DNA from: a virus
Strand: one strand, 5' to 3'
DNA: 64,000 bases
IMG/VR virus record: IMGVR_UViG_3300046820_003928
Span: 1 to 64,000 of that record
Shown here: in pieces, positions 8,268-31,465 of the stretch
How positions within the stretch are numbered: position 1 is the first letter of the stretch
Layout: each line of letters opens with the position of its first letter
Notes under the pieces: model-generated
What the model was told of the DNA's origin: nothing
Databases searched by the model: none
The model's input: only the letters and a program-made list of their open reading frames with translations
Made by a program: the position numbers and the translations under genes

Positions 8268-8302
8268 TTGGCACCCATTTGATTGCTAACTATCACTTTC
8301 CG

Positions 8303-8578
8303 TTAATTTGTGAACTCTGGGCCAGAACTCTTCTTAGTAGTTGCTGGTTTCTTTTTCTCTTTTTGCGACAGAAGATCCGAGATCTCGTTGAGAAGTCTTG
8401 CCTGGATAATTGCAAGTGTCGCAAGAGCACGTGAATTTTCCTTGAGATCAGACTGAATCTGATTTAGTCTGGCATTGATTTCGTCTTGTCCGTCCTGCAG
8501 TCTTTGCAATTGGGCATCTACTGCTAGATCTCTTTCCTTGTCGACAAAGAGATTCTTAAGCTCTTCTTTTAATCTCAT
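8303..8578 (-). CDS. Coiled-coil hypothetical protein
   Basis: 91 aa, heptad-like; ATGA overlap. Confidence 0.7.
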   Translation of the reverse strand: MRLKEELKNLFVDKERDLAVDAQLQRLQDGQDEINARLNQIQSDLKENSRALATLAIIQARLLNEISDLLSQKEKKKPATTKKSSGPEFTN

Positions 8579-8883
8579 GTTGCATCCTTTAGCGGGCTTT
8601 CTAACTCCAGGATGCTATAGATTGCATCAGAGTCGGCTTCGTCAAGCTGCCTTAGCTGTCTATTCAGCTTTCTAGAAGCAGCAGATTCTAAGACTCCAAT
8701 GGCATCAGGACGTCCTATTGTTACAAGCCGAGCAAATTCTTCAAGAACTTCTTGCATGCTTAGATCGTGATTAAAGCATGCAATCCTAAACCCTGCATGA
8801 GAAGAGACAGACATGCTGACATGTATTGTCTTCTTGGTTGCAAGATTTACTAGCTTTCTTTCTCTGCTTGACTTTTTCTTCAT
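8575..8883 (-). CDS. Hypothetical protein (possibly ribbon-helix-helix-like)
   Basis: 102 aa; KKTIHVSMS strand followed by two helices (weak inference). Confidence 0.6.
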   Translation of the reverse strand: MKKKSSRERKLVNLATKKTIHVSMSVSSHAGFRIACFNHDLSMQEVLEEFARLVTIGRPDAIGVLESAASRKLNRQLRQLDEADSDAIYSILELESPLKDAT

Positions 8884-8889
8884 CTGACG

Positions 8890-9420
8890 TTAGCCGCCAG
8901 CAGACCCCTTACCTGCAGCACCGGGAGCAATTGGAACATCAATGATGTCATCCTCTCCATCAAGGTCGAAGCCATACTGATTATCAAGGATATCCTGCAT
9001 TTGATCGACGTAACTCTGATCGTAGTTTTCTCTGAGATATTTCATTGCACGTGCAACAATAACCTCTTGGACAGGAAGTAGATCTGTTGCATTATTCACA
9101 AGTCTTGCAATCTTGCTTGTGAAAACCTCGATATCAAGGGGCAACCTGGGCTCCTTGGCGTCGTCTTTCGTGGCATCAGCTGGCTTTGCGCCCTTTTCAG
9201 GGGTTGTCTCTTCTTCCTCAAGAAGGAATCCAAGTGAAAGATTGGCTAGTGATTCCATCAATTCATCAGATTCTTGGTCATCTTCTGATTTAAGAGATTC
9301 ACTTTCATATCGAACAATACGTGCATCAATCTCAGAATCAAGAGAATCAGCAGGTGGACCCGGGTCCTTCATCATTCCTGCAACGGGAGAATCGTTCATC
9401 TCCTCATCTATTCTTTTCAT
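8890..9420 (-). CDS. Acidic hypothetical protein
   Basis: 176 aa; ATGA overlap with the SOD-like gene. Confidence 0.75.
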   Translation of the reverse strand: MKRIDEEMNDSPVAGMMKDPGPPADSLDSEIDARIVRYESESLKSEDDQESDELMESLANLSLGFLLEEEETTPEKGAKPADATKDDAKEPRLPLDIEVFTSKIARLVNNATDLLPVQEVIVARAMKYLRENYDQSYVDQMQDILDNQYGFDLDGEDDIIDVPIAPGAAGKGSAGG

Positions 9421-10112
9421 GATGCACTCACCTTCATCGCCTGTGCGACCTTTTCAGCCTTCCTGATTCTCTCTTCTACAACAGTCCAATTAAGCTCCTT
9501 CATCATAGCATATGTGAAGGTCTTGACATCGGAAAGATAATCGCGGTAGTAAGCATGCTGCCAGACATCCATTACGATCACTGGAATACATCCAATCGGA
9601 ACCTGCTGGCTGTGCAAGTCGATGAATGTGTTCATGTATGTTTGTGTGAAGATGTTGTAATATGTCATCGCCCATCCGCATCTTGATGAAAGACAGCAAG
9701 CAATAAAATCTGACTGCCATCTGTCAAAGTCACCAAAATCTCGGGAAAGACGCATGAAAGACAGCGTGTCCATTGAGATGCTACTTGCAACATCGCTGAT
9801 GTTTGCAAAATAAAGCTCGTGGAGATACATCGCATTCATGTTATAGGTCTCATCTTGCTTGAGAGATCTAAACTGCGATCCATTTGATCGTGCGGAAGCA
9901 CGATCTACAGTGTCAAGCTCGGCACTGATTCTATTGAAAGATTCAACATATCCCTGATAAAGACCTTCATGGGCCTTCTTTGTTGCAGCACTCTGGAATT
10001 CTGTGGAAAGATTAAAAGCCTTCTCCTGTGCTACGAGAGCTTCATCAAGTGACGCTCTCTTTGCTCCAAGAGACTCACTGATTATCTTTGCAACATCTGA
10101 ATTTTTTATCAT
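9417..10112 (-). CDS. sod: Fe/Mn superoxide dismutase-family protein
   Basis: AHEGLYQGYV, LHELYFANI, DFGDF, GWA, PVIVMDVWQHAYY; the four metal ligands (H, H, D, H) are present. Confidence 0.9.
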   Translation of the reverse strand: MIKNSDVAKIISESLGAKRASLDEALVAQEKAFNLSTEFQSAATKKAHEGLYQGYVESFNRISAELDTVDRASARSNGSQFRSLKQDETYNMNAMYLHELYFANISDVASSISMDTLSFMRLSRDFGDFDRWQSDFIACCLSSRCGWAMTYYNIFTQTYMNTFIDLHSQQVPIGCIPVIVMDVWQHAYYRDYLSDVKTFTYAMMKELNWTVVEERIRKAEKVAQAMKVSAS

Positions 10113-10113
10113 C

Positions 10114-10377
10114 TTAAAGTCCTCGATACTGCTTAAAATCTGAGCTGTGAATCTCTATTGGATTTCCATCGCCTGCAGTTGCTGTGAGAATGGGCTTTCC
10201 TTTTTCAATTCTTACGTCTTTAACTGTATATGTCAGTCCAGACTTGATGTGTTCTAGCTTGAATCCAGGAGCAATAACAACCTGCTGATTTTTTCCTTTC
10301 CCAACAGTTGCCTTTAGATGCTCAGCAACTCGTGCTTCGACCATGGCCTCAATGTCTTTTGCAGAAATTATTTTCAT
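10114..10377 (-). CDS. Hypothetical protein (87 aa)
   Basis: Tiles the operon; leader KIISAKDIEAMVE. Confidence 0.75.
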   Translation of the reverse strand: MKIISAKDIEAMVEARVAEHLKATVGKGKNQQVVIAPGFKLEHIKSGLTYTVKDVRIEKGKPILTATAGDGNPIEIHSSDFKQYRGL

Positions 10378-10391
10378 ATCTTAATCCGCTT

Positions 10392-10874
10392 TCAGCTACT
10401 TATCTTCCTTACTAAAATTCCTGCGCTTCTCAAGAGATCAATTCCTCCAAAGTCGCGATATTCTTCTCTAAAGACGACTTCTTTTATGCCAGAATTGATG
10501 ATTGACTTGGCACACATTCTGCATGGACTCATACTGACATACATGATTTTTTTCTTAGGATTATTGTAATCAAGCTTGATAAGAGCATTTACCTCTGCAT
10601 GGATAAATCCAGATTCTCCGGGCATGTCAGATTCTCTCTGATTCTTTCCCCCCGAATGATCTCCGTTATAGCCAAGAGCAAGAAGCTGAGTGTTGTCGCT
10701 TGTTACAACAATGGCAGCAACTTTATGCACTGAATCTGCAGACCTCTTTTCGATAGTCTTGACAACATCCATCCAGACTTGATCCCAGGTTGGCCTTTGA
10801 TCTTGTGTGTGTCTTAGATCATCAAGGAAATCATTTCTCACTGGCAGCACCCTCAATGTCAAATATCGTCTCAA
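10392..10874 (-). CDS. dCMP deaminase
   Basis: LGYNG, HAEVNAL and SPCRMC zinc-deaminase motifs; true start probably GTG at 10841. Confidence 0.93.
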   Translation of the reverse strand: MRRYLTLRVLPVRNDFLDDLRHTQDQRPTWDQVWMDVVKTIEKRSADSVHKVAAIVVTSDNTQLLALGYNGDHSGGKNQRESDMPGESGFIHAEVNALIKLDYNNPKKKIMYVSMSPCRMCAKSIINSGIKEVVFREEYRDFGGIDLLRSAGILVRKISS

Positions 10875-11718
10875 TGCTTATTCCGGCCGGAAGTGAAAAA
10901 CCAGCAGCCTTTCTGTGACCTCCTCCGCCGAACTTCTTGGCAATTTCACTAACGTCAGAATCGTCGTGGTGAGCTCTAAGGCTTACCTTGACCTGACTTG
11001 TCTCGTGATCCCAATACCAGATAACAGCGAAATCGCATTTAGGGGAAAGCGCGGCGCCGATTTCAGACATCCAATGTGGTGAATTTACAACAAGAACATC
11101 ATTTCCATCAAGCTTCCTTGAAGATGCATGCTTCGCGATCTTCGAGATAACAGTCTTGGAGTAAGCGAGGATGTAAGCACCTCTTTCCTGAGCACTGTCA
11201 ACTGCTGAGTCATCGAGGTACTTGTCGAACTCTTCGAAGTCAAATGGAACCATGTCGAACGCAGCGGAAAACTCCTTGGAGTAGGGAATCTGCCATTTCC
11301 AGAGATCACGATCCTCGATAAACTTGATCATTCGAGGTGCTTCCTTGCCTGGATGGAAGAAGTTCCAAGAGAGCATCGCACCGCTGTGGGTCATGTCAAA
11401 TCGAGTGCAGGTAATGTCATGCAGTTCCACCATCGCAGATTTGTGATGATCGATAACAAGAAATCCCTTTGCCTCTTTCATCAACCGCTTTGTTGTCGCA
11501 TTGTCATACGAGAAATCTAGAATGACAACATTTTTTCCAGCGACATCCGGCGGGGGTTCACCATACTTTGCAGCGTGGTATTCTGCACGATCACCAAGCA
11601 GCTTCCAGGCAGCATAAGCAGCCCCAAATCCGTCTGTACAATTTGCATGATAGATCACAAGATCGACACTACCGGGATCCATTAGAAGTCCTGCACACGA
11701 TTGTGATGATTCCAGCAT
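10831..11718 (-). CDS. DHH/DHHA1-family phosphoesterase
   Basis: YHANCTDG, LDFS, IDHH, SLR, GGGGHRKAAG. Confidence 0.9.
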   Translation of the reverse strand: MLESSQSCAGLLMDPGSVDLVIYHANCTDGFGAAYAAWKLLGDRAEYHAAKYGEPPPDVAGKNVVILDFSYDNATTKRLMKEAKGFLVIDHHKSAMVELHDITCTRFDMTHSGAMLSWNFFHPGKEAPRMIKFIEDRDLWKWQIPYSKEFSAAFDMVPFDFEEFDKYLDDSAVDSAQERGAYILAYSKTVISKIAKHASSRKLDGNDVLVVNSPHWMSEIGAALSPKCDFAVIWYWDHETSQVKVSLRAHHDDSDVSEIAKKFGGGGHRKAAGFSLPAGISIETIFDIEGAASEK

Positions 11719-12254
11719 CTTGGCTCATATAGCTCAGAACCTCCAACAGCAATTTCTCCGAGATTTTCAACTTTTCGTGTTGTGAAATAAGCATCAGAAC
11801 CGCAAGTTGTGCAAACTGCAGAGCACTTCTCAATGTGTGTCGCCCAGGGTAGAATCTCCTTGATCTCATCAAAGGCATTACAGGATGCTGACATCTCAAT
11901 TGAGGCGACAACAACTGTAAATCCAGATCGATACAAAGAGATCAGAGCATCAGAAACACCGTCGATCATAAATGCCTCGTCGACAGCAATGACATCTGGG
12001 CGCTGGTCTTGGTTTGTTACAACCCTTAGGATATCTTTTCCACTAGAGACATTGATAGCTGGAATCTTTCCACCATTGTGAGTACAGATCTCGCTTGTCT
12101 CATACCTGTCATCCATTCTAGGCTTAAACGCCAGAATTTTCAGACCTTTGTATCTAAACCTGTCAACAAGCGCAATCAGCCTGGTAGTCTTTGACCCCAT
12201 CATAGGCCCTGTAAAAACGTAGAAGGCTGGGTTCATCATGTTAGATTCCACCAT
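11682..12254 (-). CDS. tdk: Thymidine kinase (type II/TK1-like)
   Basis: GPMMGSKTT P-loop, DDRY, VDEAFM, CxxC, IAVGGSELYEPRC. Confidence 0.95.
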   Translation of the reverse strand: MVESNMMNPAFYVFTGPMMGSKTTRLIALVDRFRYKGLKILAFKPRMDDRYETSEICTHNGGKIPAINVSSGKDILRVVTNQDQRPDVIAVDEAFMIDGVSDALISLYRSGFTVVVASIEMSASCNAFDEIKEILPWATHIEKCSAVCTTCGSDAYFTTRKVENLGEIAVGGSELYEPRCWNHHNRVQDF

Positions 12255-13249
12255 TTTAGGGTCTTCTCCAATCCGTCCCTGAAAGAGACCTTGGGTACAT
12301 ATCCGAAATCTCTTTGTGCAGCGCTGTAATCTCCTAGAGTATGCATAACGTCTCCTGCGCGCCAGGGCGCATCGACTATATTAATGCCTTCGAAACGATT
12401 TTTTAAGTAATCGATAATTTCCCTATTTGTGATTCTTTCACCGCAACAAACGTTGTATGATTCACCTGAGAACTTTTTATCAGAAAATGCTGCAAGAATA
12501 TTTGCGTCAACAATGTTATCGACATGACACATATCTCGAGACTGACTTCCGTCTCCATCGGACCTTAGAGGTCTACCATCGTGAATAGCATGGCACCAAG
12601 CAGAGACTGCAGTTGAATAGGGCGAATCTCCAAGTTGCCCCTGACCAAATACGTTGAAGTATCTTAAAAAGACAATGTCAAGATCGTAAAGACTGCTAAA
12701 CAACTTTCCAAACTCTTCTAGGCAAGACTTCTGAAGGGCGTATGGAGAGACGGGATTCTTTGGTACTGATTCGTGAGTTGGCAGAACTTCGGAAGCTCCA
12801 TAGACTGCTGATGACGAAGCTGTAACTACACGGCGCGTATTTCCCGAACATGCAACAAGGAGATGAAGAGACTTCATCAGATTTTCGTCTGTTGTCTCTA
12901 TTGGGTTTTCAACCGAGTAAGAGACACGTGGCATTGCTGCCTGGTGGAAGACTACATCATACATCTTGCTTTGGATTCTTGAAAGTACGACTGGAGATGC
13001 AAAATCGTTCTCGATGACCCACACCTGATCAGCGGGTCGATTTTCAATTTGGGACTCGAAAATGTTGACAAGGTTACCGATAAACGTTTTAAAATTCAAA
13101 CCCTCAAGATTTTCTAGAGACCCATTTGACATGTTGTCAACTACGTCGACTGTGTGGCCGTTTTCAACGAGCTTCTTGACAAGGTTGGACCCAATAAAAC
13201 CGGCTCCTCCGGTTACAAGGATCCGTGAAAAAGGCAAAATCTCAGACAT
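12236..13249 (-). CDS. NAD-dependent NDP-sugar epimerase/dehydratase (extended SDR)
   Basis: VTGGAGFIGS, ASSSAVYG, YALQK (YxxxK), LRYFNVFG, GDGSQSRD. Confidence 0.95.
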   Translation of the reverse strand: MSEILPFSRILVTGGAGFIGSNLVKKLVENGHTVDVVDNMSNGSLENLEGLNFKTFIGNLVNIFESQIENRPADQVWVIENDFASPVVLSRIQSKMYDVVFHQAAMPRVSYSVENPIETTDENLMKSLHLLVACSGNTRRVVTASSSAVYGASEVLPTHESVPKNPVSPYALQKSCLEEFGKLFSSLYDLDIVFLRYFNVFGQGQLGDSPYSTAVSAWCHAIHDGRPLRSDGDGSQSRDMCHVDNIVDANILAAFSDKKFSGESYNVCCGERITNREIIDYLKNRFEGINIVDAPWRAGDVMHTLGDYSAAQRDFGYVPKVSFRDGLEKTLKWWNLT

Positions 13250-13283: not shown

Positions 13284-14156
13284 TTATGGAACAATGTGAG
13301 CGCAATTTAACTTGACTCTCATTTTAATGTTCCTGTTCTTGAGACCGGCAAGAATCTGGGTCTTGAATCCAAGATGGACAAGGGCATCAAGATCGATCTT
13401 TAGATTTTTTGGAATATTTGTTGATCTGCATACAACGTCAAGGACATCCTGTTCATCTCGATGGATAAATCTAACGTAAGAGATGCAGCTTGAGTTCGCT
13501 GTTACAAACCTGCGAGAAGCAGCAGATTGACCACTTGCCATCTCATTCACAATCCTGTTCATTAGATCTGACTCAATTGAAGAGTAATACTCCTCTTCTC
13601 CAGAGACGCTGAGTGAATCGGGACCGGGATCATCGACAGGGGAAAGGATCACCTCAAACTGTGTATCAATTGATTCGTTGCGTCCCGTTGTGGAAAGAGA
13701 CATCTCAGCATACTCGGCGATCCGCTTTGTTGTAACTGCCTCTCTGCTTGTGATAACATCGCGCACCGCTTCGGGATCTGGTAGTTCTCGACAAACAATT
13801 ACAGAGGGGTGATACCGCAGCGCCATCGCGTGACTGTTGAACTCCTCCCACGTTCTCCGTAGTGTATCAAGGTTGTGCATCTCATCACCTCTGGATGCAA
13901 ACCGCGCTGTTACAGTGTTCCACCCGGGGGCAAGAAGAACGACAACGTTGTTTAGATCGTCAAGAAATCTATTTAAGTCTCCCTTTTCATGGCTATCATC
14001 ACGTCCAAAAATCTTGGGATAAACAGCGCGGCTAAGATGACCTCGATCTCTAATGTCATATCGAAAATCTGTTGCCTTGTGGAAATCACGATAGAATGTA
14101 GTCTTCCCAGAGAGATCGCAGCCCTCAAGAACAACCTGCTTCGTTACCAGTCTCAT
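13284..14156 (-). CDS. Fusion of a dNMP (thymidylate) kinase-like domain and a thymidylate-synthase-fold domain
   Basis: N-terminal LEGCDLSGKTT P-loop and DRGHLS; C-terminal SRR...C..F...RSTN......D...AHI aligns with the TS core. Start ATG at 14156 overlaps the dnaE stop (ATGA). Confidence 0.75.
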   Translation of the reverse strand: MRLVTKQVVLEGCDLSGKTTFYRDFHKATDFRYDIRDRGHLSRAVYPKIFGRDDSHEKGDLNRFLDDLNNVVVLLAPGWNTVTARFASRGDEMHNLDTLRRTWEEFNSHAMALRYHPSVIVCRELPDPEAVRDVITSREAVTTKRIAEYAEMSLSTTGRNESIDTQFEVILSPVDDPGPDSLSVSGEEEYYSSIESDLMNRIVNEMASGQSAASRRFVTANSSCISYVRFIHRDEQDVLDVVCRSTNIPKNLKIDLDALVHLGFKTQILAGLKNRNIKMRVKLNCAHIVP

Positions 14157-17100
14157 ACTTGAATCTTCCTCATCTTGTTGTTGTTTGTGGAGCATCCCCA
14201 GTTTGCATCTTTGCTAACTTCAGCAATGTAGATCTCATAGTGATTGAGCGGCATTTCACCCCAGATTCTCAGATTCACCATTTGCATCTCATTGTCGCAT
14301 ACCTGGGCACGAATAAAACCCTTGCCATTCTTTGTCTTCTTTACAGTAAAGTCCTGAACCAAGAACCAGCAAATCTGCCTTTCTCCATCTCCAATCGCAG
14401 TGATGGGATCGACCTGGGCCTTTTTGATCTTAGCAATAATGTCATCTGGAAACATTAGATCTTCACGAGAAGTTGACGTTAGGTCAAAGTACATCTTAAG
14501 CTTCTCTGATCGTGTCCAGTCAGGTAGATCTTCAAACTGCTCAAGTAGATTCCAGAACGTCACTTCGGGCTTGATTCCTTCCTTCTGCATCTTCTTGAGC
14601 TGTGTTTTCGTGTACCCAAATCTGCCCCGTCGAAGAACATCATAATTCTTTCCCTCTGTCATGGTGGCAAGAAGCTGTCGATGGTTCTTGACCCGACCCG
14701 ATCTAAAGTCTTCAAGCGAGCTAAGTGCTTCGACGCTACAGAGTGAAGTGAGAGTCGTCTTGTTCACCTTTGAATGACGCCAGGATCCATCAGCAAGATA
14801 GAGCATCTGCTCAATCGACTTATAGGGTCGATTATCCATGATTTCCTTGACAGCAGTTTCACCAACGCCCTTGATCGATGTCAAGGGAGGAACAAAACCC
14901 TGTAGCTCCCGACTAAACATCCAAACATCTCCAGAGCTGTTGATGTCAGGTGGAAAGATCTTGAATCCCTGCTCCTTGATCTCAGCAGCTACCTTCGCGA
15001 GTCCTTCTGGGTTGCTATTCTCAGACTGGAGGCATGTGGCAAGCCACTCTTCTTCATAGTGCTTGTGCAGCCAGGCTGCGTAGTAAGAATCGACTGCATA
15101 TGAGACAGAGTGTGACTTGTTGAACCCGTATGCGGAGAAGGCCTCAATTGTTTCGTAGAGCTCCGTTGCGTCCTTCACCGACATTCCATTGAGATTGACA
15201 GCACCGTCTACGAATCTCTTACGAAGATCCTCACGCTCTTTTGCCTTCTTTTCGTTCATGTCAAGCGACTTCTTGACCAGCGTCTTGCGCATCTGGTCAG
15301 ATTCTCCCGGATTAAATCCAGCAAGCTTCTGGGCCAACAACATGAATTGCTCCTGGTAGACGACGAATCCGTGTGTCGGTCCCAGGATGTCTTTCAGAAT
15401 TGGATGCTTATAGGTTGCTGTTCCCTTGTTCTTGACATCGACGTATTTCTTGTGAACTCCTGCAGCAAGCGGACCAGGACGGTAGATTGCTGTGATGGCA
15501 GAGAGATCTTCGATTGACGTGGGCTTCGCCTCGAGGCAGAACTTTCTAGCTCCGCTATTCGTGAACTGGAAGATCTGGGTAAATCTACCAGAATGATAGA
15601 CGTGCTTCCACACATCTTGATCATCGGGTTCGTTATATCGAATGTTGAGATGCTTATCAAAGAACTCTTTGACCTGCGCAAAGCTAGGGTTTTGGATGCC
15701 AAAGCGAGTCTGCAGCAACATTCGAATGCAGTCTTCGACCATCTTTAGAAGCGACAGACCGAGGAAGTCAAACTTGAGGAATCCGTTCTCCTCAAGATGT
15801 CGGAAGTTCATGCCTTCAGACCACGGCGTCTGCAACTCACCTCGGACTGAGATGACAGGCATATGATCTTCAAGGCGTGGGCAGATAAGAACGCCGCCGG
15901 CATGGCGACCAATCGAACGTGTCTCCATGAAGAGTGACTGAACCTGATCACAAAGGTCAGGATACTTCTCCATGAAGATCTTGTACTTCTCAGAATATTT
16001 CATGCAGTCTGCATGAGAAAGAACGTATGTGCTCTTTTCCTCGTGGTCTCCGAGCGCTTTGTGCATGACATCATCCTGAAGAGGTCCTGTGACTTCATTT
16101 ACCTCTTCGAATGGAATCCCATGAAACTTAGCAATGTCCTTGATCAGAGACTTCAGCTTTAGGGTGTTGAAGTTTGAGACAGGAACAACAGAGTCTTCTC
16201 CAAATAGATTACGTGCCTCATCAATTAGAACGTCTCGGTCACCGACGTCTGTGTCGATATCCGGCCACGCGACCTTGTGACGACCGAGGAATCTCTCCCA
16301 CAGGAGATCGTACTTGATCGGATCGACCGATGTGATTCCGAGGACGTAATTGACCAGAGATCCGGCGCCAGATCCTCGACCTGGTCCGATCAGCGTGCGA
16401 TGCTGTGCTCGATCAAAGACAAAATAAAGTGTGAGGAAGTAGTTCTCAAACTTTAGATACTTGATGTCATCAAGTTCCATCTTAAGACGTTCAACGTACT
16501 CGGGCTTTGTATGAAGACCGAGCTCAACAAGACCCTTCTTGCACATCTCAAGAAGCTGATTGAACGCTGTTTGTTCGGGCTTGTTAAAGCTTGGGAGCTT
16601 AGCAGAAGTATCGAAGGTGATTTCCTCACACTTTTCCCACGCAATATCGTATGTTCGCTCAATTGAGTCGCGAACTAGTTCCTCAGTTCCGCTGTAGAAT
16701 TCAAACTTGTCCTTATGGGCAAGATACTCATCCCACATCTGGCGCGCGTTCTTTGGGTACAACTCACACTTTAGATCTTCAAAAGCAGGCAACGTCTGCT
16801 TCTGCATATCATCAGAGCGACCTCCCATTCTACCCAGCTTCTTGTAAAGCTCACGAGCTTGCCATGCGTTCGGACTATAATAGTGAGAGTCAGCAGTGGC
16901 AATTGTCTTGATACCAGTTCGACCCGCAAGCGTGATTAGATGCTTGTTTGTTGTATGCTGGATGTCAAGACGATTGAACTGAAGCTCTAGGAAAAAGTTA
17001 TCAATTCCAACTGCATCAACAAACCGATCAGTGTGATTCTGGAGCTCGCGCTGGATCTGTTCGTGAGACTTCTTGAGTGCCTCACCCCGGATGGCAGTAG

Positions 17101-17710
17101 AAGCCAAGAGCCCACCGACACACGCTGTCGAGACAACAAGCCCTTCTCCATGCTGCTTAAGCATGTCATAATCGATCCGAGGAAATCGATAGTATCCTTC
17201 AACGTAGGATCGCTTGACAAGGTTGAACAGATTCTTGAGTCCAGTTCGATTCTTGGCAAAAACAACCAAGTGATACCGACGCTTCCACTCGTCAGCGTCA
17301 TCTGACTCAACAGTCTTCGTCTCGTCCTCGTCTTCAACAACAAGTCCGCCTGTGACTTCATCCTCTGCAAGAATATCAGTAGTTTCAGGCTTTCCCTCTT
17401 CGTTCTTTACACGCTTAGATTCAAAATGAGCAGCACGCTTCCGCTCCCATTCAGAGATCGAGGGAACAAAATAGAACTCAGCGCCATAGATCTGTCGAAA
17501 CTTTCTACCCTTGCCTTTCATCTTCTTGGCGTAGGTGTGCGCGTGAGCGAGACCGTTGCCGCTTCCGTGATCTGTCAGCGCCCAGGCATCCATCTCGTTT
17601 GACAGGATCCAGTCGATGTGCTTGTCAGGATACCCAAGACCATCATTGACCGACAGGCCCGAATGGCAGTGAAGTCCGACGAACCGACTTGGAGGCACAA
17701 TGTTACCCAT
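14153..17710 (-). CDS. dnaE: DNA polymerase III alpha subunit (family C) with PHP domain
   Basis: LHCHS..DG, TDHG, ADSHY, GRGSGAGS, PDIDTD, RHAGG, KFDFLGL, YQEQ, FNKSH. Confidence 0.97.
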   Translation of the reverse strand: MGNIVPPSRFVGLHCHSGLSVNDGLGYPDKHIDWILSNEMDAWALTDHGSGNGLAHAHTYAKKMKGKGRKFRQIYGAEFYFVPSISEWERKRAAHFESKRVKNEEGKPETTDILAEDEVTGGLVVEDEDETKTVESDDADEWKRRYHLVVFAKNRTGLKNLFNLVKRSYVEGYYRFPRIDYDMLKQHGEGLVVSTACVGGLLASTAIRGEALKKSHEQIQRELQNHTDRFVDAVGIDNFFLELQFNRLDIQHTTNKHLITLAGRTGIKTIATADSHYYSPNAWQARELYKKLGRMGGRSDDMQKQTLPAFEDLKCELYPKNARQMWDEYLAHKDKFEFYSGTEELVRDSIERTYDIAWEKCEEITFDTSAKLPSFNKPEQTAFNQLLEMCKKGLVELGLHTKPEYVERLKMELDDIKYLKFENYFLTLYFVFDRAQHRTLIGPGRGSGAGSLVNYVLGITSVDPIKYDLLWERFLGRHKVAWPDIDTDVGDRDVLIDEARNLFGEDSVVPVSNFNTLKLKSLIKDIAKFHGIPFEEVNEVTGPLQDDVMHKALGDHEEKSTYVLSHADCMKYSEKYKIFMEKYPDLCDQVQSLFMETRSIGRHAGGVLICPRLEDHMPVISVRGELQTPWSEGMNFRHLEENGFLKFDFLGLSLLKMVEDCIRMLLQTRFGIQNPSFAQVKEFFDKHLNIRYNEPDDQDVWKHVYHSGRFTQIFQFTNSGARKFCLEAKPTSIEDLSAITAIYRPGPLAAGVHKKYVDVKNKGTATYKHPILKDILGPTHGFVVYQEQFMLLAQKLAGFNPGESDQMRKTLVKKSLDMNEKKAKEREDLRKRFVDGAVNLNGMSVKDATELYETIEAFSAYGFNKSHSVSYAVDSYYAAWLHKHYEEEWLATCLQSENSNPEGLAKVAAEIKEQGFKIFPPDINSSGDVWMFSRELQGFVPPLTSIKGVGETAVKEIMDNRPYKSIEQMLYLADGSWRHSKVNKTTLTSLCSVEALSSLEDFRSGRVKNHRQLLATMTEGKNYDVLRRGRFGYTKTQLKKMQKEGIKPEVTFWNLLEQFEDLPDWTRSEKLKMYFDLTSTSREDLMFPDDIIAKIKKAQVDPITAIGDGERQICWFLVQDFTVKKTKNGKGFIRAQVCDNEMQMVNLRIWGEMPLNHYEIYIAEVSKDANWGCSTNNNKMRKIQV

Positions 17711-18913: not shown

Positions 18914-19357
18914 CTACTCGATTAATCCACCGTAAGTTCGATTAAGAAGGCGTCCCGCCTCTCGACACTGGATGAGATAGCTTCGAAGATCATCAATTGA
19001 AGTACAAACTGCAACACCCGATGCCGCAAGCATTAGATTGAACTTTGCATTCGGAGGAAGTCCTGCGCAGAAATAAACGATGGGCTTATCAAGGCTATAG
19101 AAGTAACCTGCTTCCCAGATTGAACCCATATCCTTGTTGCGAGTATTGCAGATCATCCAGTCACAAAGATCCAGATGATTCACATTTCCATCGAAGATCG
19201 CCTTCTGCGTGTCCGTAGACGAATCTGCCTCGGCAATTGCATAATCCTTAGGAGAGAAATAGTCAAGACTAAGATCCTCGAGGACCTTTTTGATGTCCTC
19301 GACTTCCTGGAACCAATCTGGAGAAAACCAACCGCTTGCAATGTAGACGTTGTTCAT
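18914..19357 (-). CDS. Nucleoside 2'-deoxyribosyltransferase / nucleotide N-glycosidase family protein
   Basis: VYIASGWFS, F..N...L..CD, DMGSIWEAGY (catalytic Glu), NLML. Confidence 0.8.
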   Translation of the reverse strand: MNNVYIASGWFSPDWFQEVEDIKKVLEDLSLDYFSPKDYAIAEADSSTDTQKAIFDGNVNHLDLCDWMICNTRNKDMGSIWEAGYFYSLDKPIVYFCAGLPPNAKFNLMLAASGVAVCTSIDDLRSYLIQCREAGRLLNRTYGGLIE

Positions 19358-25702: not shown

Positions 25703-26653
25703 TTAAATGCCTCGAGAATTCTTGTAATTGGTAACAATCTGATCAATGTCACCAAGAATCTCATTCCAGAGCTCACGGAAGTGAGGAACTCCACCATCTG
25801 TTCCATTCATGTCATCACGAGTAGCCTGATAGATTGTATCATTTGGATGATAGGTAAGATGCTTCTCGCTGTCCTCGTCGGGCCAATAGAGATTTGTTCC
25901 GGTTCCGTTACGGAACGTCTTGATGTAATGCCAGGCAGGCTCCTTAAGATTGATCGCCACGTGAGCCTCAGGAAAAACCTTGAGAATCTCACGAGCCATG
26001 AGGGCTGCAATGATGTTGTCCTCTTCGGGCTGGATCTGCTTGTCCTGACGCTGCTTGATGAATCCAAAAGCATCGCGGATGTTCATGCGCATGTAATAGA
26101 AAGTTTCTAGGCACTTAGGCAGGACGTGTCGAGCATCCATAAGACTGATCTGCTTGGAATCAACCATGTCAACATAGAGCTGCTTCGCTTCCTTGACGTG
26201 ACGTTTCCACCGATCGTAGAACTCAGGGCTGTTCTGGATAGATCCCGGTACAAGACTGCGCTCGTGAGAAAGCCAGCGATCACCTGTGCACTGTGCAGCA
26301 AAAGAGCCTGCACGATGACGGATGAGGTGAGTTACTGTCTGCGTATCGATACCTCCAACAAGGAAGGTAAGACCAATAAGCTCCATCGCTGCAGGAAGCG
26401 CACGACCTGCAAAGACGTCTTCAAGGGTCTTGCTAAGATCAGCATCTGTTGCTTCTGCATATGGAACATGCTTGTCTGCCCAGGTAGACTTAACGAAGCA
26501 ATAAACAGCCTGTCGAATGGTCTTTGGATCTGGACTATCTACAAGCTCGATCTTTAGTGCATCGAGGCTATTAACGAACTCAGTTGTTGGCTTCTCGTCA
26601 AAACGAATTGCCATGGGAAGGGTGATTGGCTTAAGATCAAGGCTTTGTGGCAA
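25703..26653 (-). CDS. Divergent ThyX-like flavoprotein (paralogue)
   Basis: HLIRHRAGSFAAQCTGDR (RHR-x7-S motif with C in place of S), DARHVLP, late R..KQIQPE. Confidence 0.8.
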   Translation of the reverse strand: MPQSLDLKPITLPMAIRFDEKPTTEFVNSLDALKIELVDSPDPKTIRQAVYCFVKSTWADKHVPYAEATDADLSKTLEDVFAGRALPAAMELIGLTFLVGGIDTQTVTHLIRHRAGSFAAQCTGDRWLSHERSLVPGSIQNSPEFYDRWKRHVKEAKQLYVDMVDSKQISLMDARHVLPKCLETFYYMRMNIRDAFGFIKQRQDKQIQPEEDNIIAALMAREILKVFPEAHVAINLKEPAWHYIKTFRNGTGTNLYWPDEDSEKHLTYHPNDTIYQATRDDMNGTDGGVPHFRELWNEILGDIDQIVTNYKNSRGI

Positions 26654-26661
26654 GTTTTCTC

Positions 26662-27579
26662 CTATGAAAGATTATCGATGATTTGTAGCAGGTTTTCAAC
26701 CAAGATTACACCTTTTTGCTGATGTAGAGCAGTGTTGTATGGCTGAATGGGACTAAATGTCTTGAGACCATGCGAGGCAAATTCAGCAGCATGCTTAGGG
26801 GAGTCATCAACACAAAATGCCACATGTCCAGAGAATTTAGACTGAATGATCCATCTAAACTTCTCGCCGCTGAATGCTAGATCGTCAAAATAGATGCTGG
26901 ATTCCTGTAACCATCTTGCAGTATCAAAAAGACAAAGTGGATTATCTGCAGGTCGAGCAGTAAGAATCTGAACCCAGTAGCCCATGTCTCGAAGAGCATG
27001 TGTGAATCTTACTGCATGATGATCGACTCCCAGACTTCTAAGCTTGCGCTCAGAGATGAAATCCTTGAATAGCTGTTCAGTGTTGTGCCCAAGCTCTTGT
27101 GCAGCTGATGCTGCATAATACTCAGGACAATCATAGGAGATCGTTACACCTTTTGTCTCAGACAGCCAATCAAAAAATCCCTTTCGAAACTCGGCAATCA
27201 CATCATCCATGTCAAGGATAACAACAGGTCGACCATCCCACTGACGCTGAGCTAGCGTGTGCCTAAAGTGAAGATACGCATCTTTGTCATCAAATGCCTC
27301 CTTAAACTCTTCCTGATCGATCTTCCAGACATTCATGATTGCCATCAAGTATCTGAGGACATCAACGCTCTCATAGAGGATCTTTGTCCTGTCTGGCATC
27401 TTTCTATCTGAATGATGCTCCTTAAAGTTAATTGAAGATATCAGATCTGAGACCTCTGAATGAAGTTCAAGAGCAAATGATTTGGTCATCTGCTCTCGAT
27501 CTGTATCTGTGAACTTTGTGCTATCGAAGAAGAGATCAGAAAAAGACTTCTGTCTCTCTAGCATGTCCTTTAGCTTCAC
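26662..27579 (-). CDS. All-alpha NTP pyrophosphatase (MazG/dUTPase-like) fused to a HAD 5'-nucleotidase
   Basis: N-terminal ELHSEVSDL...YESVDVLRY; C-terminal ILDMDDVI, ILTARP, K, VDDSP (HAD motifs I-IV). Confidence 0.8.
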   Translation of the reverse strand: MKLKDMLERQKSFSDLFFDSTKFTDTDREQMTKSFALELHSEVSDLISSINFKEHHSDRKMPDRTKILYESVDVLRYLMAIMNVWKIDQEEFKEAFDDKDAYLHFRHTLAQRQWDGRPVVILDMDDVIAEFRKGFFDWLSETKGVTISYDCPEYYAASAAQELGHNTEQLFKDFISERKLRSLGVDHHAVRFTHALRDMGYWVQILTARPADNPLCLFDTARWLQESSIYFDDLAFSGEKFRWIIQSKFSGHVAFCVDDSPKHAAEFASHGLKTFSPIQPYNTALHQQKGVILVENLLQIIDNLS

Positions 27580-27588
27580 TAATCCCTC

Positions 27589-27963
27589 TTAGTACTTGGA
27601 TCTAATCCTATCATGAATGATTCGATCTTTACTAACGTAAGCATCAAAAAGCTCATCGGGTGTCACACCCATAATGATTAGAAGAGAAATAAAATAATTA
27701 AAAGAATCAACCATCTCTTCTTTGAATGCTGATCTGTCAAATTCCTTGATCTCCGTCTGTCTGTGTGACTTTGCATTCTTTAGCTCTTGAACCGCCTCAA
27801 AGACCTCTTCAACTCCCCTGAGGGCGAGATCTCTAAGGTGTTGCTGCGTTTGCTTGTCTGTAAGATCGATTGGCATCTCAGGATAGACGTCTGGAACATG
27901 AGCTTGCAAAGCCCTCATAAAGGACTGTCTAAGCTCAAACATCTGGTCGAGCTTATCCTTCAA
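27589..27963 (-). CDS. Dimeric all-alpha dUTPase/dCTPase-like pyrophosphatase
   Basis: EEVFEA...K.H...KEEMVDSFNYF...Y.SK..IIHDR. Confidence 0.8.
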   Translation of the reverse strand: MKDKLDQMFELRQSFMRALQAHVPDVYPEMPIDLTDKQTQQHLRDLALRGVEEVFEAVQELKNAKSHRQTEIKEFDRSAFKEEMVDSFNYFISLLIIMGVTPDELFDAYVSKDRIIHDRIRSKY

Positions 27964-29756: not shown

Positions 29757-30170
29757 CTATACTTTGTTAATCCATCGCCAGTAATTCTTTAACGCACCAT
29801 CTTTGGGCTCGGGAATTCCTGACCAATTATGCTTACAGAAGATCTCATACGCAGCAGATGCGTACTCACCAATCCCGTGAAGAGACTTTGGATCCGATTT
29901 GTCCCACGAAAGATAGTCAGTGGACATTTTGATCAAAGTCTTTGCTCGTCTTTCTCCAAGCCCTAAGTCTTTGACAAGCTCATGAACCTGATCAAAGTCT
30001 GCAGTTGATGCAGACCCTGGATCTGGCCAACACTCAAAGAATTTCCACATTGTTGGCTCTGCATCAACCCTTCGGGTCAGATTGCAGAAGATACAAACAA
30101 CAAAGACACGCCAGGGATCTTCCTGGACGTGTTCTTGTATGAGATTGTATGGCGATCGTGGTGCGTACAT
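29757..30170 (-). CDS. MBD4-like HhH DNA glycosylase (catalytic domain only)
   Basis: SPYNLIQE..DPW...CIFCNLT, LGL..RA, LHGIGEYA, PKD..L..Y. Confidence 0.85.
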   Translation of the reverse strand: MYAPRSPYNLIQEHVQEDPWRVFVVCIFCNLTRRVDAEPTMWKFFECWPDPGSASTADFDQVHELVKDLGLGERRAKTLIKMSTDYLSWDKSDPKSLHGIGEYASAAYEIFCKHNWSGIPEPKDGALKNYWRWINKV

Positions 30171-30832: not shown

Positions 30833-31465
30833 TTAATATCCAAACGCTGAGATCGTTTCTTTGAATGGAGATCCTGGAATTTCTCTAACTTGTCGCAGCA
30901 TCTCTTCTGCGATCCAGCAGATTTCACGTTGAGCATCTGGCTTCATGCGAAGGCCAAGAAAGTGATTGAAAGATCGCCAGTTGAACATGACGTCCATTGT
31001 GATTTGATTTCCATACGGGAGATAGAATCGAGCTGATTCTTTTGCCCGCTTCCGACTCATGCCTCCTGCGACTAACCTCTCAAGTGTATCGTGGTAGCGC
31101 ATAATTGCATCTTCCATGAAAGCAATGTACTTTGCTCTCTCCTCAAGGGGCCAATCGCTTGGAACGTAGTACTTGTCATCCTTCAGCTCCTTATAGCGAG
31201 CTGACTCACCATTTATCGAAACACCAATTCGATGCTTGAGAAGATGGATATGGCTGGCACAATCAACTGTAACAAGGAAATGAAGACTTGACTTCTCAAA
31301 GGGAGTCTCGTGTCCATTCTCAGCCAGCATTTTAAGAAGAGATGAAATTCTCGACCTCTTGTCATCATTTAGATCTCTGCTTGTACTCGTCCAAGCAGAC
31401 AATGCATGAATCTCATCAGATCCGTAATAGCCAACTAGTTCAACTTTGTTTTCTTGAAATGACAT
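30833..31465 (-). CDS. thyX: Flavin-dependent thymidylate synthase
   Basis: GHETPFE, KHR-x8-SARY, KESARFYLP, NWRS, LR...AQREI. Confidence 0.95.
   Translation of the reverse strand: MSFQENKVELVGYYGSDEIHALSAWTSTSRDLNDDKRSRISSLLKMLAENGHETPFEKSSLHFLVTVDCASHIHLLKHRIGVSINGESARYKELKDDKYYVPSDWPLEERAKYIAFMEDAIMRYHDTLERLVAGGMSRKRAKESARFYLPYGNQITMDVMFNWRSFNHFLGLRMKPDAQREICWIAEEMLRQVREIPGSPFKETISAFGY

What the first reader, a model, noticed from the sequence alone, without database searches (positions are those of the whole stretch)
13284..14156. dNMP kinase fused to a stripped-down thymidylate-synthase fold with a cytosine-type specificity residue, coupled to dnaE
Seen: a P-loop kinase (GCDLSGKT, DR) followed by SRRFV...C-ISYVRF...VVCRSTNIPKNLKIDL...AHIVP. 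This aligns by eye with E. coli ThyA SRRII...PC-HAFFQF...YQRSCDVFLGLPFNI...THLY. The catalytic Cys, RS and His are kept, D169 becomes N and N177 becomes D. Established: Asp at the N177 position marks dCMP-acting TS-family enzymes such as T4 dCMP hydroxymethylase. The phage already has a canonical ThyX for dTMP. The domain ends just after the His, so it lacks the usual C-terminal folate-closing tail. Inference: a one-polypeptide modify-and-phosphorylate enzyme that makes a non-canonical dCNTP precursor. It is translationally coupled (ATGA) to the polymerase and followed by an NDP-sugar epimerase.
Basis: partly seen in the sequence, partly recalled or inferred. Interest (0 to 1): 0.85.

Follow-up and report, generated by a model that had tools for sequence, protein, structure and literature searches.

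The report
Kinase fused to mini thymidylate-synthase fold
An uncultured T4-like marine phage encodes, right after its DNA polymerase gene, one protein that joins a small nucleotide kinase to a stripped-down thymidylate-synthase-type domain built for cytosine nucleotides, so this phage group probably makes or handles an altered cytosine for its DNA, by chemistry still unknown.

Summary
Window 13284-14156 (-) encodes a 290-aa protein whose start overlaps the dnaE stop (ATGA).

- **Kinase domain:** residues 1-137 form a minimal TMPK/YorR-like P-loop kinase.
- **TS-fold domain:** residues 138-290 form a 150-aa thymidylate-synthase (TS) fold. The top structural matches are all TS-superfamily enzymes, and profile comparison with phage 5-hydroxy-dCMP synthases gives E 1.2e-8.
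- **Residue mapping:** C224=C146, R215/R216=R126/R127, R244/S245=R166/S167, N247=D169, D255=N177 and H287=H207. All are invariant in 81 relatives except R216 (80/81) and position 247 (N 38, D 35, E 8).
- **What is missing:** the folate/flavin-pocket segment and the C-terminal tail.

Asn at 169 with Asp at 177 is the published signature of flavin-dependent 5-hydroxy-dCMP synthases. Those gene clusters also carry a related kinase.

New here:
- Split kinase + mini-TS gene pairs exist.
- The module co-occurs with a divergent ThyX paralogue or with a second cytosine-type TS homologue.
- One cultured phage, Geobacillus phage GR1, carries kinase, ThyX paralogue and mini-TS beside dnaE.

The "modify-and-phosphorylate" reading is plausible but unproven, so it is partly supported. 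The scan found this family before on other DNA, with the same verdict.

The parts
13284..14156 (-). Whole gene: 290-aa kinase / mini-TS fusion (stop codon 13284-13286)
   Evidence: Translation. 51 close and 455 cluster-level homologues, mostly about 290-300 aa. AF2 model with pLDDT 89.4 and pTM 0.87.
13746..14156 (-). N-terminal minimal P-loop nucleotide kinase domain (residues 1-137)
   Evidence: VIA-align: YorR 3kb2 Z 12.1, thymidylate kinases Z about 10.5. hhalign to the RB69 gp45-type kinase family: probability 92.9, E 3.8e-7. Weak PHROG thymidylate-kinase hit.
14097..14126 (-). Walker A / P-loop, EGCDLSGKTT (residues 11-20)
   Evidence: E11, G12, D14, G17 and K18 are invariant in 81 sequences.
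13287..13745 (-). C-terminal minimal thymidylate-synthase-fold domain (residues 138-290)
   Evidence: Domain model pLDDT 93.6. Foldseek and VIA-align top hits are all TS superfamily. hhalign to 5hodCMP synthases: probability 95.6, E 1.2e-8.
13506..13517 (-). SRRF (residues 214-217), equivalent to ThyA S-R126-R127
   Evidence: Profile alignments. R215 is invariant and R216 is kept in 80/81. Both lie in the predicted dimer interface.
13485..13487 (-). Cys224 (TGC), equivalent to the catalytic Cys146 of ThyA
   Evidence: Aligned. Invariant in 81/81 fused and 24/24 stand-alone or mixed sequences.
13416..13427 (-). R244-S245-T246-N247, equivalent to ThyA R166-S167-C168-D169
   Evidence: R and S are invariant. 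Position 247 is N 38, D 35, E 8.
13392..13394 (-). Asp255, equivalent to ThyA Asn177 (base-specificity position, cytosine type)
   Evidence: alignment. Invariant in 81/81.
13296..13298 (-). His287, equivalent to ThyA His207. The protein ends 3 residues later.
   Evidence: SAH aligned with SAH of RB69 gp48, and that SAH with T-H207 of ThyA. Invariant.
14153..17710 (-). dnaE (Pol III alpha, 1185 aa) immediately upstream; its stop overlaps the start of the fusion gene
   Evidence: ORF. DnaE homologues. The upstream neighbour is dnaE in 81/81 related loci.
12236..13249 (-). NAD-dependent NDP-sugar epimerase/dehydratase (337 aa) immediately downstream
   Evidence: Pfam Epimerase 5e-47. GalE/TviC-like. 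Present in 59/81 loci.
25703..26653 (-). Divergent ThyX paralogue (316 aa) that co-occurs with the mini-TS module in other lineages
   Evidence: Pfam Thy1 9e-20. Homologues stand next to the mini-TS in L111 and in Geobacillus phage GR1, and in the same cassette in L102 and L108. Present in 5/5 large relatives.
30833..31465 (-). Canonical ThyX (210 aa)
   Evidence: Pfam Thy1 8.8e-36.
10392..12254 (-). Downstream nucleotide-metabolism genes of the same strand block: thymidine kinase (11682-12254), DHH phosphoesterase (10831-11718), dCMP deaminase (10392-10874)
   Evidence: Pfam. Conserved in 64, 39 and 54 of 81 loci respectively.

Best explanation
The protein is a homodimeric, two-domain enzyme of phage pyrimidine-precursor synthesis.

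1. The C-terminal mini thymidylate-synthase domain binds a cytosine deoxynucleoside 5'-monophosphate. The phosphate is held by R244/S245 and by R215/R216 of the partner subunit. The base is read by Asp255 and the 3'-OH by His287.
2. Cys224 attacks C6 and makes C5 reactive, as in every TS-family enzyme.
3. A C5 substituent is then installed. For the Asn247 clade, to which the window belongs, the leading candidate is a hydroxyl from O2 and reduced flavin, as in AfhB / RB69 gp48.
4. The fused TMPK-like kinase phosphorylates the product to the diphosphate. A modified dCTP then reaches the co-expressed DnaE replicase.

**Shown:** the fold, the residue equivalences, their conservation, the fusion and split forms, and the synteny.
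**Inferred:** the substrate, the covalent catalysis, the identity of the C5 group, the kinase's substrate, and incorporation into DNA.
For: **Fold and homology**
- Top 7 of 48,161 chains are all TS superfamily, Z 9.3-11.8.
- The Foldseek top two hits are AfhB dCMP hydroxylase, 9iqu and 9iqc.
- hhalign to the RB69 gp48 family gives probability 95.6 and E 1.2e-8, with SRR / C / RSxN / D / SAH in register.
- Single-sequence comparisons rank gp48 (E 2e-6) and a gp42-like dCMP hydroxymethylase homologue (E 5e-6) above E. coli ThyA (E 7e-5).

**Active-site conservation**
- All pyrimidine-activating residues are invariant across 81 fused proteins of about 25-30% identity, and across stand-alone forms.
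- N247 with D255 equals the D169N + N177D signature. That signature predicted 5hodC production in nine of nine tested TS homologues (PMC13326640).

**Kinase link (Rosetta-stone argument)**
- The 5hodC clusters of RB69, DLP3 and RL38J1 carry a YorR/TMPK-like nucleotide kinase beside the synthase.
- The N-domain is homologous to that kinase.
- Kinase and mini-TS also occur as adjacent genes in L102, L108 and L109.

**Dimer prediction**
- Homodimer score 0.85, best of 3 controls 0.00. The mark was reached by 20 of 30 proteins solved as pairs of one chain and by 1 of 23 solved as single chains.
- The runs agree in at least 73% of contacts, and the partner's pLDDT is at least 85.
- The interface is the TS-type beta-sheet and includes R215/R216. 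Because TS dimers are solved, the pass may reflect likeness only.

**Genome context**
- No other TS-family (PF00303) gene is found in five large relatives, including a 100%-complete 284-kb genome.
- The own genome has a large glycosyltransferase / NDP-sugar cluster.
- In GR1 a flavin reductase-type nitroreductase and a glycosyltransferase stand near the split module.
Against: - **Missing cofactor pocket.** Only about 10 residues link the E187 helix to the SRRF strand. ThyA has about 60 there, carrying W80, W83 and Y94, and the 5hodCMP synthases retain them (consensus). The C-terminal tail is also absent, so no folate or flavin pocket of the known kind exists.
- **Position 247 varies.** It is Asn in only 38/81 sequences. 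The hydroxylase signature is therefore not a family trait.
- **Other C5 enzymes are always near.** In every informative contig, split or stand-alone mini-TS genes sit with another pyrimidine-C5 enzyme homologue. These are a ThyX paralogue (L102, L108, L111, GR1) or a cytosine-type full TS homologue (L102, L103, L107, L108). The window lineage always has the ThyX paralogue. This suggests an accessory or later step.
- **Repair genes.** The phage encodes Fpg/Nei and HhH-GPD glycosylases. From established knowledge, enzymes of these families excise free 5-hydroxycytosine.
- **Synteny is not independent.** The 81 loci belong to one viral lineage, so their synteny is not independent evidence.
- **No flavin reductase.** None of the nitroreductase type is found in the marine lineage.
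- **No data on activity or virion DNA.**
Confidence: 0.4

Rival explanations
1. Second-step enzyme. Another enzyme first makes a C5-substituted pyrimidine nucleotide such as 5-hydroxymethyl-dCMP. That enzyme would be the ThyX paralogue here, or gp42-like TS homologues in other phages. The mini-TS domain has an open C5 face. It re-activates this nucleotide through Cys224 (exocyclic-methylene chemistry) to exchange or elaborate the substituent. The kinase either phosphorylates the 5'-phosphate or activates the C5 side-chain hydroxyl as a leaving group.
For: - In every informative contig the mini-TS co-occurs with a ThyX paralogue or a cytosine-type full-length TS homologue.
- In GR1 the ThyX paralogue's stop overlaps the mini-TS start. 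In L111 the gene order is ThyX paralogue, mini-TS, dnaE.
- The cofactor-pocket segment is lost while all base-activating residues are kept.
- Kinase and mini-TS are tied more tightly to each other than to the other enzymes, by fusion or by overlapping genes.
Against: - No precedent exists for such a nucleotide-level exchange by a TS-fold enzyme.
- No candidate nucleophile-donor enzyme was identified.
- The function of the ThyX paralogue is itself unknown.
- The N247 + D255 signature points to hydroxylation instead.
Confidence: 0.22
2. Kinase with a reader domain. The kinase is the phage's dNMP kinase. The mini-TS domain does no net chemistry. It is a TS-derived nucleotide-binding module that selects, or allosterically senses, a cytosine-type nucleotide, for example by admitting modified dCMP and excluding dCMP.
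For: - No canonical thymidylate kinase (PF02223 over its cut-off) is found in the own record or in five large relatives. This is despite heavy investment in dTMP supply through TK, ThyX and dCMP deaminase.
- The gene lies in a general nucleotide-metabolism island containing GMP reductase, dUTPase, a PRTase and a deoxyribosyltransferase-like gene.
- The cofactor pocket is missing.
Against: - The catalytic Cys, the E58-like Glu187 and Asp255 are invariant across sequences that share only about 25% identity, and in stand-alone proteins that have no fused kinase. That pattern is expected of an enzyme, not of a binding module.
Confidence: 0.18
3. Cofactor-free chemistry on dCMP. Cys224 addition at C6 promotes hydrolytic deamination (dCMP to dUMP), or addition of a small free electrophile. 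This feeds the ThyX / TMPK-like route to dTTP.
For: - From established chemistry, saturation of the 5,6 double bond of cytosine accelerates deamination, and C5-methyltransferases can add aldehydes without a cofactor.
- The domain has no cofactor pocket.
- The kinase is TMPK-like.
Against: - A canonical zinc dCMP deaminase is co-conserved in the same block (54/81 loci), which would make this activity redundant.
- There is no precedent in the TS family.
Confidence: 0.05
4. Chance resemblance or a mis-called gene: the motifs are coincidental and the domain is not TS-related.
For: Pfam, NCBIfam and PDB sequence searches give no TS hit.
Against: - Structure searches are unanimous.
- hhalign gives E 1.2e-8 with all motifs in register.
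- 455 homologous clusters were found, and the sampled members share the same invariant residues.
Confidence: 0.01

Closest known systems
Flavin/O2-dependent 5-hydroxy-dCMP synthases of the TS superfamily (phage HY126 AfhB, PDB 9iqu/9iqc; RB69 gp48; DLP3 gp80; RL38J1 gp216)
   Same: - TS fold, with the best Foldseek hits.
- Profile-level homology: probability 95.6.
- Shared Cys, SRR, RS, Asn at the D169 position, Asp at the N177 position and an SAH motif.
- A YorR/TMPK-like kinase encoded in the same cluster, homologous to the fused N-domain.
   Different: - Those enzymes are about 217-240 aa and are detected by PF00303. They keep the W80/Y94-type segment and are separate from the kinase.
- The domain here is 150 aa, is not detected by Pfam, and lacks that segment and the tail.
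- It is fused to, or overlaps, its kinase gene.
- Half of the family has Asp/Glu instead of Asn at position 247.
T4 gp42 dCMP hydroxymethylase with gp1 dNMP kinase (hmC pathway)
   Same: - Cytosine-type Asp at the N177 position and a catalytic Cys.
- Structural match: 6l18, Z 9.3.
- The logic of modifying the base and then phosphorylating the nucleotide.
- A gp42-like homologue scores E 4.6e-6 against the family profile.
   Different: - gp42 is folate-dependent, with a full pocket and 246 aa.
- gp1 is an unrelated kinase family and a separate gene.
- In L103 and L107 a gp42-like gene stands beside a stand-alone mini-TS, so the two are not equivalent.
E. coli ThyA (canonical thymidylate synthase)
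   Same: - Fold: ThyA of Brucella, Z 11.8.
- Residue-for-residue equivalents of R126/R127, C146, R166/S167 and H207.
- A predicted beta-sheet homodimer.
   Different: - N177 is Asp and D169 is Asn.
- About 60 internal residues and about 50 C-terminal residues are missing.
- dTMP in this phage comes from ThyX.
Geobacillus phage GR1 (OK896991.1) genes UDY80706 (P-loop NTPase), UDY80709 (ThyX paralogue) and UDY80710 (hypothetical, 151 aa)
   Same: - Split orthologues. The kinase scores E 2.8e-17 against the N-domain HMM.
- The 151-aa protein scores E 1e-13 against the mini-TS HMM, with C, RSSN, D and H kept.
- The ThyX paralogue is 45.5% identical to the window's.
- dnaE, DHH and a deoxyribosyltransferase-like gene are also nearby.
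   Different: - Separate genes in a 79-kb siphovirus of a thermophilic Firmicute.
- A flavin reductase-type nitroreductase and a glycosyltransferase are adjacent.
- The R216 equivalent is Gln.
- The only cultured carrier found.
B. subtilis SPbeta YorR (PDB 3kb2, 2axp) and thymidylate kinases
   Same: - Best structural matches of residues 4-146: Z 12.1, and about 10.5 for thymidylate kinases.
- An EGxDxxGK(S/T)T P-loop, a DR motif and a lid Arg.
   Different: - Only 137 residues, against 170-210.
- No Pfam Thymidylate_kin hit.
- Substrate unknown.

Membership tests
Thymidylate synthase superfamily (ThyA / dCMP hydroxymethylase fold) | Characteristic alpha/beta fold with a central sheet and a long J helix | tested here: met
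   VIA-align wide: the top 7 of 48,161 chains are all TS family, Z 9.3-11.8, with 134-146 of 153 residues aligned at rmsd about 3.1. Foldseek gives TS hits only.
Thymidylate synthase superfamily (ThyA / dCMP hydroxymethylase fold) | Catalytic Cys (C146), with phosphate-binding R166/S167 and the R126/R127 pair | tested here: met
   In register in hhalign. Invariant, or 80/81 for R216.
Thymidylate synthase superfamily (ThyA / dCMP hydroxymethylase fold) | Obligate homodimer through the beta-sheet, with Arg residues reaching across | tested here: inconclusive
   Prediction only. Score 0.85 against a best control of 0.00, with strands 215-245 and 282-285 in the interface. It may reflect likeness to solved TS dimers.
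Thymidylate synthase superfamily (ThyA / dCMP hydroxymethylase fold) | Match to the curated family model PF00303 above its cut-off | tested here: not met
   No Pfam hit at E up to 10. No PF00303 match in the own record, whereas RB69 gp48 scores 2e-16.
Thymidylate synthase superfamily (ThyA / dCMP hydroxymethylase fold) | Cofactor pocket: the W80/W83/Y94 segment and the C-terminal closing tail | tested here: not met
   About 10 residues lie between the helix at 51-70 and the SRRF strand of the domain model. The chain ends 3 residues after H287. The structural alignment stops near residue 210-219 of the targets.
5-hydroxy-dCMP synthase (AfhB / RB69 gp48 type) | Asp at the ThyA N177 position (dCMP specificity) | tested here: met
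   D255 aligned to N177. Invariant in 81/81.
5-hydroxy-dCMP synthase (AfhB / RB69 gp48 type) | Asn at the ThyA D169 position (published diagnostic, PMC13326640) | tested here: met
   N247 in the window protein is aligned to D169 and to N186 of gp48. Across the family it is N 38, D 35, E 8.
5-hydroxy-dCMP synthase (AfhB / RB69 gp48 type) | Acidic residue at the L143 position | tested here: inconclusive
   The segment before the Cys is shortened and gapped in every alignment. Most relatives have Asp two residues before the Cys, whereas the window protein has Ser.
5-hydroxy-dCMP synthase (AfhB / RB69 gp48 type) | Binds a flavin and makes 5-hydroxy-dCMP from dCMP and O2 | not testable with these tools
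   Needs protein and LC-MS. He et al. 2026 (Nat Chem Biol) is not in the held library.
Thymidylate/dNMP kinase-like P-loop kinases (TMPK, YorR) | P-loop NMP-kinase fold with Walker A, a DR motif and a lid arginine | tested here: met
   Z 12.1 to YorR and 10-11 to TMPKs. Motifs invariant.
Thymidylate/dNMP kinase-like P-loop kinases (TMPK, YorR) | Match to the curated model PF02223, or a demonstrated dNMP substrate | tested here: not met
   No Pfam or NCBIfam hit. Only a weak PHROG thymidylate-kinase hit, E 8.7e-5. The substrate cannot be tested here.

The most novel reading that the evidence does not exclude
The kinase, the mini-TS domain and the divergent ThyX-fold paralogue together form a previously unknown, folate-pocket-free route to a modified cytosine nucleotide. 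The mini-TS domain holds dCMP as an open-faced covalent Cys adduct. The C5 chemistry is completed by a partner protein (the ThyX paralogue) or on a kinase-activated side chain. If so, a large group of abundant marine T4-like, DnaE-replicating phages, and Geobacillus phage GR1, would carry a DNA base not yet described.
Probability: 0.2. Interest if true: 0.9.

Novelty: new variant of a known kind. Interest (0 to 1): 0.68.

Why it matters
The TS superfamily is the entry point of nearly all known phage pyrimidine hypermodifications. A 150-residue version that keeps the base-activating half and discards the cofactor half would be of interest for two reasons.

- **Enzymology.** It would show how little of the fold is needed and where the electrophile comes from.
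- **Annotation.** It would mark a hidden DNA-modification pathway in hundreds of uncultured, mostly aquatic large phages. These proteins are invisible to Pfam and NCBIfam and are labelled hypothetical.

Modified cytosines affect restriction and CRISPR evasion. They also affect how well such phages are recovered by sequencing.

The link to a cultured phage (GR1) and to a ThyX paralogue makes the question directly testable.

Tried and rejected
**Sequence searches of the fusion protein**
- Pfam, NCBIfam and PDB sequence searches gave nothing useful.
- tblastn against 50,697 cultured-phage records gave no match for the fusion or for two stand-alone forms.
- GR1 was reached only through the ThyX paralogue and then through local HMMs.

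**Structure search**
- The whole-model pdb_via list was filled by kinases. It showed the TS domain only once (MilA, Z 9.7), so the domain was folded and searched alone.

**Genome context checks**
- No PF00303 was found in the own record or in five large relatives.
- No nitroreductase-type flavin reductase was found there.
- No canonical TMPK was found.
- These are absences at HMM sensitivity, and the own record is only 39% complete.
- I asked whether Asn or Asp at position 247 tracks with the epimerase or other neighbours. It does not in any useful way: the epimerase is present in 18/38 N-type, 33/35 D-type and 8/8 E-type loci.

**Checks that fell short**
- My script measuring the dnaE-to-gene spacing across loci was incomplete. 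It failed to find dnaE in many loci, and gaps ranged from -8 to about +190. I therefore claim adjacency, not universal translational coupling.
- The 147-aa gene upstream of the L107 mini-TS is not a kinase.

**Literature**
- Searches found no description of a kinase / mini-TS fusion.
- The GR1 paper says nothing on DNA modification.
- He et al. 2026 on AfhB could not be read.

**Not tested**
Full report
**1. What is there**

On the minus strand, 13284-14156 encodes a 290-aa protein. Its ATG overlaps the TGA of the 1185-aa dnaE gene upstream (ATGA at 14156-14153), and a GAGGA lies 10 nt before the start. A longer ORF from 14195 exists, but homologues begin at the MRL position.

Pfam, NCBIfam and a PDB sequence search give no family. 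PHROGs gives only a weak thymidylate-kinase hit, plus a hit to an unknown-function family over residues 186-273.

**2. Two domains**

An AlphaFold model built on 24 homologues is confident (pLDDT 89.4, pTM 0.87).

Residues 4-146 match nucleotide kinases:
- YorR of SPbeta (3kb2): Z 12.1.
- Thymidylate kinases: Z about 10.5.
- Deoxyadenosine kinase: Z 10.7.

The P-loop EGxDxxGK(T/S), D37-R38, R85 and R89-G-D are invariant in 81 relatives.

Residues 138-290 were folded alone on 37 diverse sequences (pLDDT 93.6).
- In a Foldseek-independent search of 48,161 chains, the seven best matches are all TS-superfamily enzymes. They are Brucella ThyA (Z 11.8), AfhB 9iqc (11.4), MilA (10.5), three other thymidylate synthases (Z 10.0-10.5) and T4 dCMP hydroxymethylase (9.3).
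- These cover 134-146 of the 153 residues. The next hit has Z 6.2.
- Foldseek ranks the two AfhB dCMP-hydroxylase entries first.
- The viral-protein library also returns TS homologues, together with a 151-aa protein of Synechococcus phage S-CBWM1 that matches over its whole length.

**3. Residue equivalences**

Profile-profile comparison with 20 RB69 gp48-type 5-hydroxy-dCMP synthases gives probability 95.6 and E 1.2e-8. SRR, Cys, RS-x-N, Asp and S-A-H are all in register. Against E. coli ThyA the mapping is (with H287 = H207 through):

| This protein | E. coli ThyA |
|---|---|
| R215 / R216 | R126 / R127 |
| C224 | C146 |
| R244 / S245 | R166 / S167 |
| N247 | D169 |
| D255 | N177 |
| H287 | H207 |

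- Across 81 fused proteins, C224, R215, R233, R244, S245, D255, H287 and E187 are invariant.
- Position 247 is N in 38, D in 35 and E in 8.
- Stand-alone forms keep the same set.

What is missing is the cofactor half of the fold. About ten residues join the E187 helix to the SRRF strand. ThyA and the gp48 family have a long segment there that carries the Trp and Tyr residues of the pocket. The chain also ends three residues after the His.

**4. Link to known biology**

Lee et al. (PMC13326640) showed the following.
- TS homologues with N177D and D169N make 5-hydroxy-dCMP with a loosely bound flavin and O2. All nine diverse D169N homologues tested did so.
- The hydroxyl is then glycosylated on DNA.
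- The RB69, DLP3 and RL38J1 clusters also hold a YorR/TMPK-like "nucleotide kinase".

The N-domain here is homologous to the RB69 gp45 kinase family (probability 92.9, E 3.8e-7; shared P-loop and DRGxxSxxVY). The fusion thus joins two proteins that are neighbours in a proven cytosine-modification cluster.

Single-sequence comparisons place the mini domain about equally near gp48 (E 2e-6) and a gp42-like hydroxymethylase homologue (E 5e-6). It is nearer to both than to ThyA (E 7e-5).

**5. Distribution and context**

- An exhaustive profile search finds 455 clusters, mostly about 300-aa fusions.
- In 81 IMG/VR loci dnaE is always the upstream gene. Thymidine kinase (64 loci), the epimerase (59), dCMP deaminase (54), DHH (39) and an SOD-like gene (39) follow.
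- Other neighbours are GMP reductase, dUTPase, a PRTase and a deoxyribosyltransferase-like gene.
- These loci belong to one lineage, so this synteny is not independent evidence.
- The own record is 140 kb and 39% complete. It has T4-type portal, capsid and prohead-protease genes, RNR, RecA, DnaB, Fpg/Nei and HhH-GPD glycosylases, and a large glycosyltransferase / NDP-sugar cluster.
- Five large relatives, one of them a complete 284-kb genome, have no PF00303 gene and no canonical TMPK. All have a divergent ThyX paralogue of about 330-350 aa, and four of the five also have a canonical ThyX.

Stand-alone mini-TS genes were traced to their contigs.

- **L102 and L108.** The gene order is dUTPase_2, a short cytosine-type TS homologue, a ThyX paralogue, an unknown protein of about 320 aa, NT5C, a 150-aa kinase, the mini-TS, then dCMP deaminase.
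- **L109.** This contig shows NT5C, kinase, mini-TS.
- **The kinases of L102, L108 and L109.** They match the N-domain HMM at E 1e-12 to 1e-15.
- **L103 and L107.** A gp42-like TS homologue stands next to the mini-TS. In L103 a kinase, a cytidylyltransferase and an epimerase are also present.
- **L111.** The order is ThyX paralogue, mini-TS, dnaE.
- **Geobacillus phage GR1.** The window's ThyX paralogue has a single close relative among cultured phages, in GR1 (45.5% identity). In GR1 a P-loop protein (E 2.8e-17 to the N-domain), an RNase HI gene, a nitroreductase-type flavin reductase, the ThyX paralogue and a 151-aa protein (E 1e-13 to the mini-TS, with C, RSSN, D and H kept) stand in a row before dnaE. 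A glycosyltransferase is nearby.

The window itself has the matching cassette at 25.7-28.0 kb. It consists of a dUTPase_2-like gene, a dUTPase_2-NT5C fusion and the ThyX paralogue.

**7. Quaternary structure**

A homodimer is predicted with score 0.85, against a best of 3 controls of 0.00.
- The mark was reached by 20 of 30 proteins solved as pairs of one chain and by 1 of 23 solved as single chains.
- The runs agree in at least 73% of contacts, and the partner's pLDDT is at least 85.
- The interface is the TS-type sheet (215-222, 226-233, 238-245, 282-285) and includes R215/R216. Kinase residues 30-60 also take part.
- Since TS dimers are solved, this shows likeness rather than proof.

**8. 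Reading**

The conserved set of residues is what a TS-family enzyme needs to bind a cytosine 5'-nucleotide and attack C6. That makes a catalytic role much more likely than a passive one.

For the window's Asn247 clade, the published signature favours C5 hydroxylation followed by phosphorylation by the fused kinase (confidence about 0.4).

Against a simple equivalence stand three points: the lost cofactor pocket, the N/D/E split at position 247, and the constant company of another C5-enzyme homologue. These keep two rivals alive: a second-step or partner-assisted role (0.22) and a specificity-module role (0.18).

Earlier follow-ups of this scan on other genomes reached the same partial verdict. 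One of them independently pointed to the GR1 cassette around the ThyX-fold protein.

Noticed in passing
window 25703-27963 (-): A cassette of a dUTPase_2-like protein (124 aa), a dUTPase_2-NT5C fusion (305 aa) and a divergent ThyX paralogue (316 aa). In the paralogue the usual ThyX Ser-containing motif reads RHRAG-SFAAQCTGDR. Its homologues accompany the mini-TS in L102, L108, L111 and phage GR1.
   Followed up: partly
L112 (Geobacillus phage GR1, OK896991.1) 7400-10424: A cultured phage carries split orthologues: kinase, RNase HI, flavin reductase-type nitroreductase, ThyX paralogue and a 151-aa mini-TS, in that order, before dnaE. A 459-aa glycosyltransferase, an HD protein and a deoxyribosyltransferase-like gene lie upstream. 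Nothing is published on its DNA chemistry.
   Followed up: partly
L086 and L087 (own genome, about 101-140 kb): A large glycan gene set: three GT2, two GT1/GT4 (one matching the 'GT4 in conflict systems' model), GT10 and GT11 fucosyltransferase-like genes, GDP-mannose dehydratase and a DegT aminotransferase. The same region holds a PrkA/SpoVR/DUF444 trio and PhoH. Whether the glycosyltransferases act on DNA, the virion or the host envelope is open.
   Followed up: no
window 28213-29010 (-) and 29757-30170 (-): A full Fpg/Nei-type glycosylase and a small HhH-GPD glycosylase are encoded by the phage. Both families act on oxidised or deaminated pyrimidines, which is relevant if the DNA carries a C5-oxidised cytosine.
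   Followed up: no
window 9417-10112 (-): An Fe/Mn superoxide-dismutase-like gene lies in the same strand block. It is conserved in 39 of 81 related loci. It could relate to flavin/O2 chemistry, but that is speculation.
   Followed up: no
window 14157-14195 (-): An in-frame upstream ATG inside the end of dnaE gives a 303-aa ORF, and one database entry (P0002) was called that way. Homologue N-termini support the 290-aa start at 14156.
   Followed up: yes
L111 5001-5687: A mini-TS variant of 228 aa has an N-terminal Cys-rich (zinc-ribbon-like) extension. It sits between a ThyX paralogue and dnaE, with a radical-SAM/SPASM gene and an aldo-keto reductase upstream.
   Followed up: no
window 18914-19357 (-) and relatives (L003 641-1090): A nucleoside 2-deoxyribosyltransferase-like gene recurs just upstream of dnaE in this lineage and also in GR1. 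Members of this fold include dNMP N-glycosidases, so it may clear a canonical nucleotide.
   Followed up: no
own genome: L084/L085 and window 33322-36753: T4-type portal, gp23 capsid and prohead protease genes are combined with a DnaE replicase, a small PolA-like gene and an intein/HNH-containing RNR. This is an unusual mix for a T4-like myovirus.
   Followed up: no
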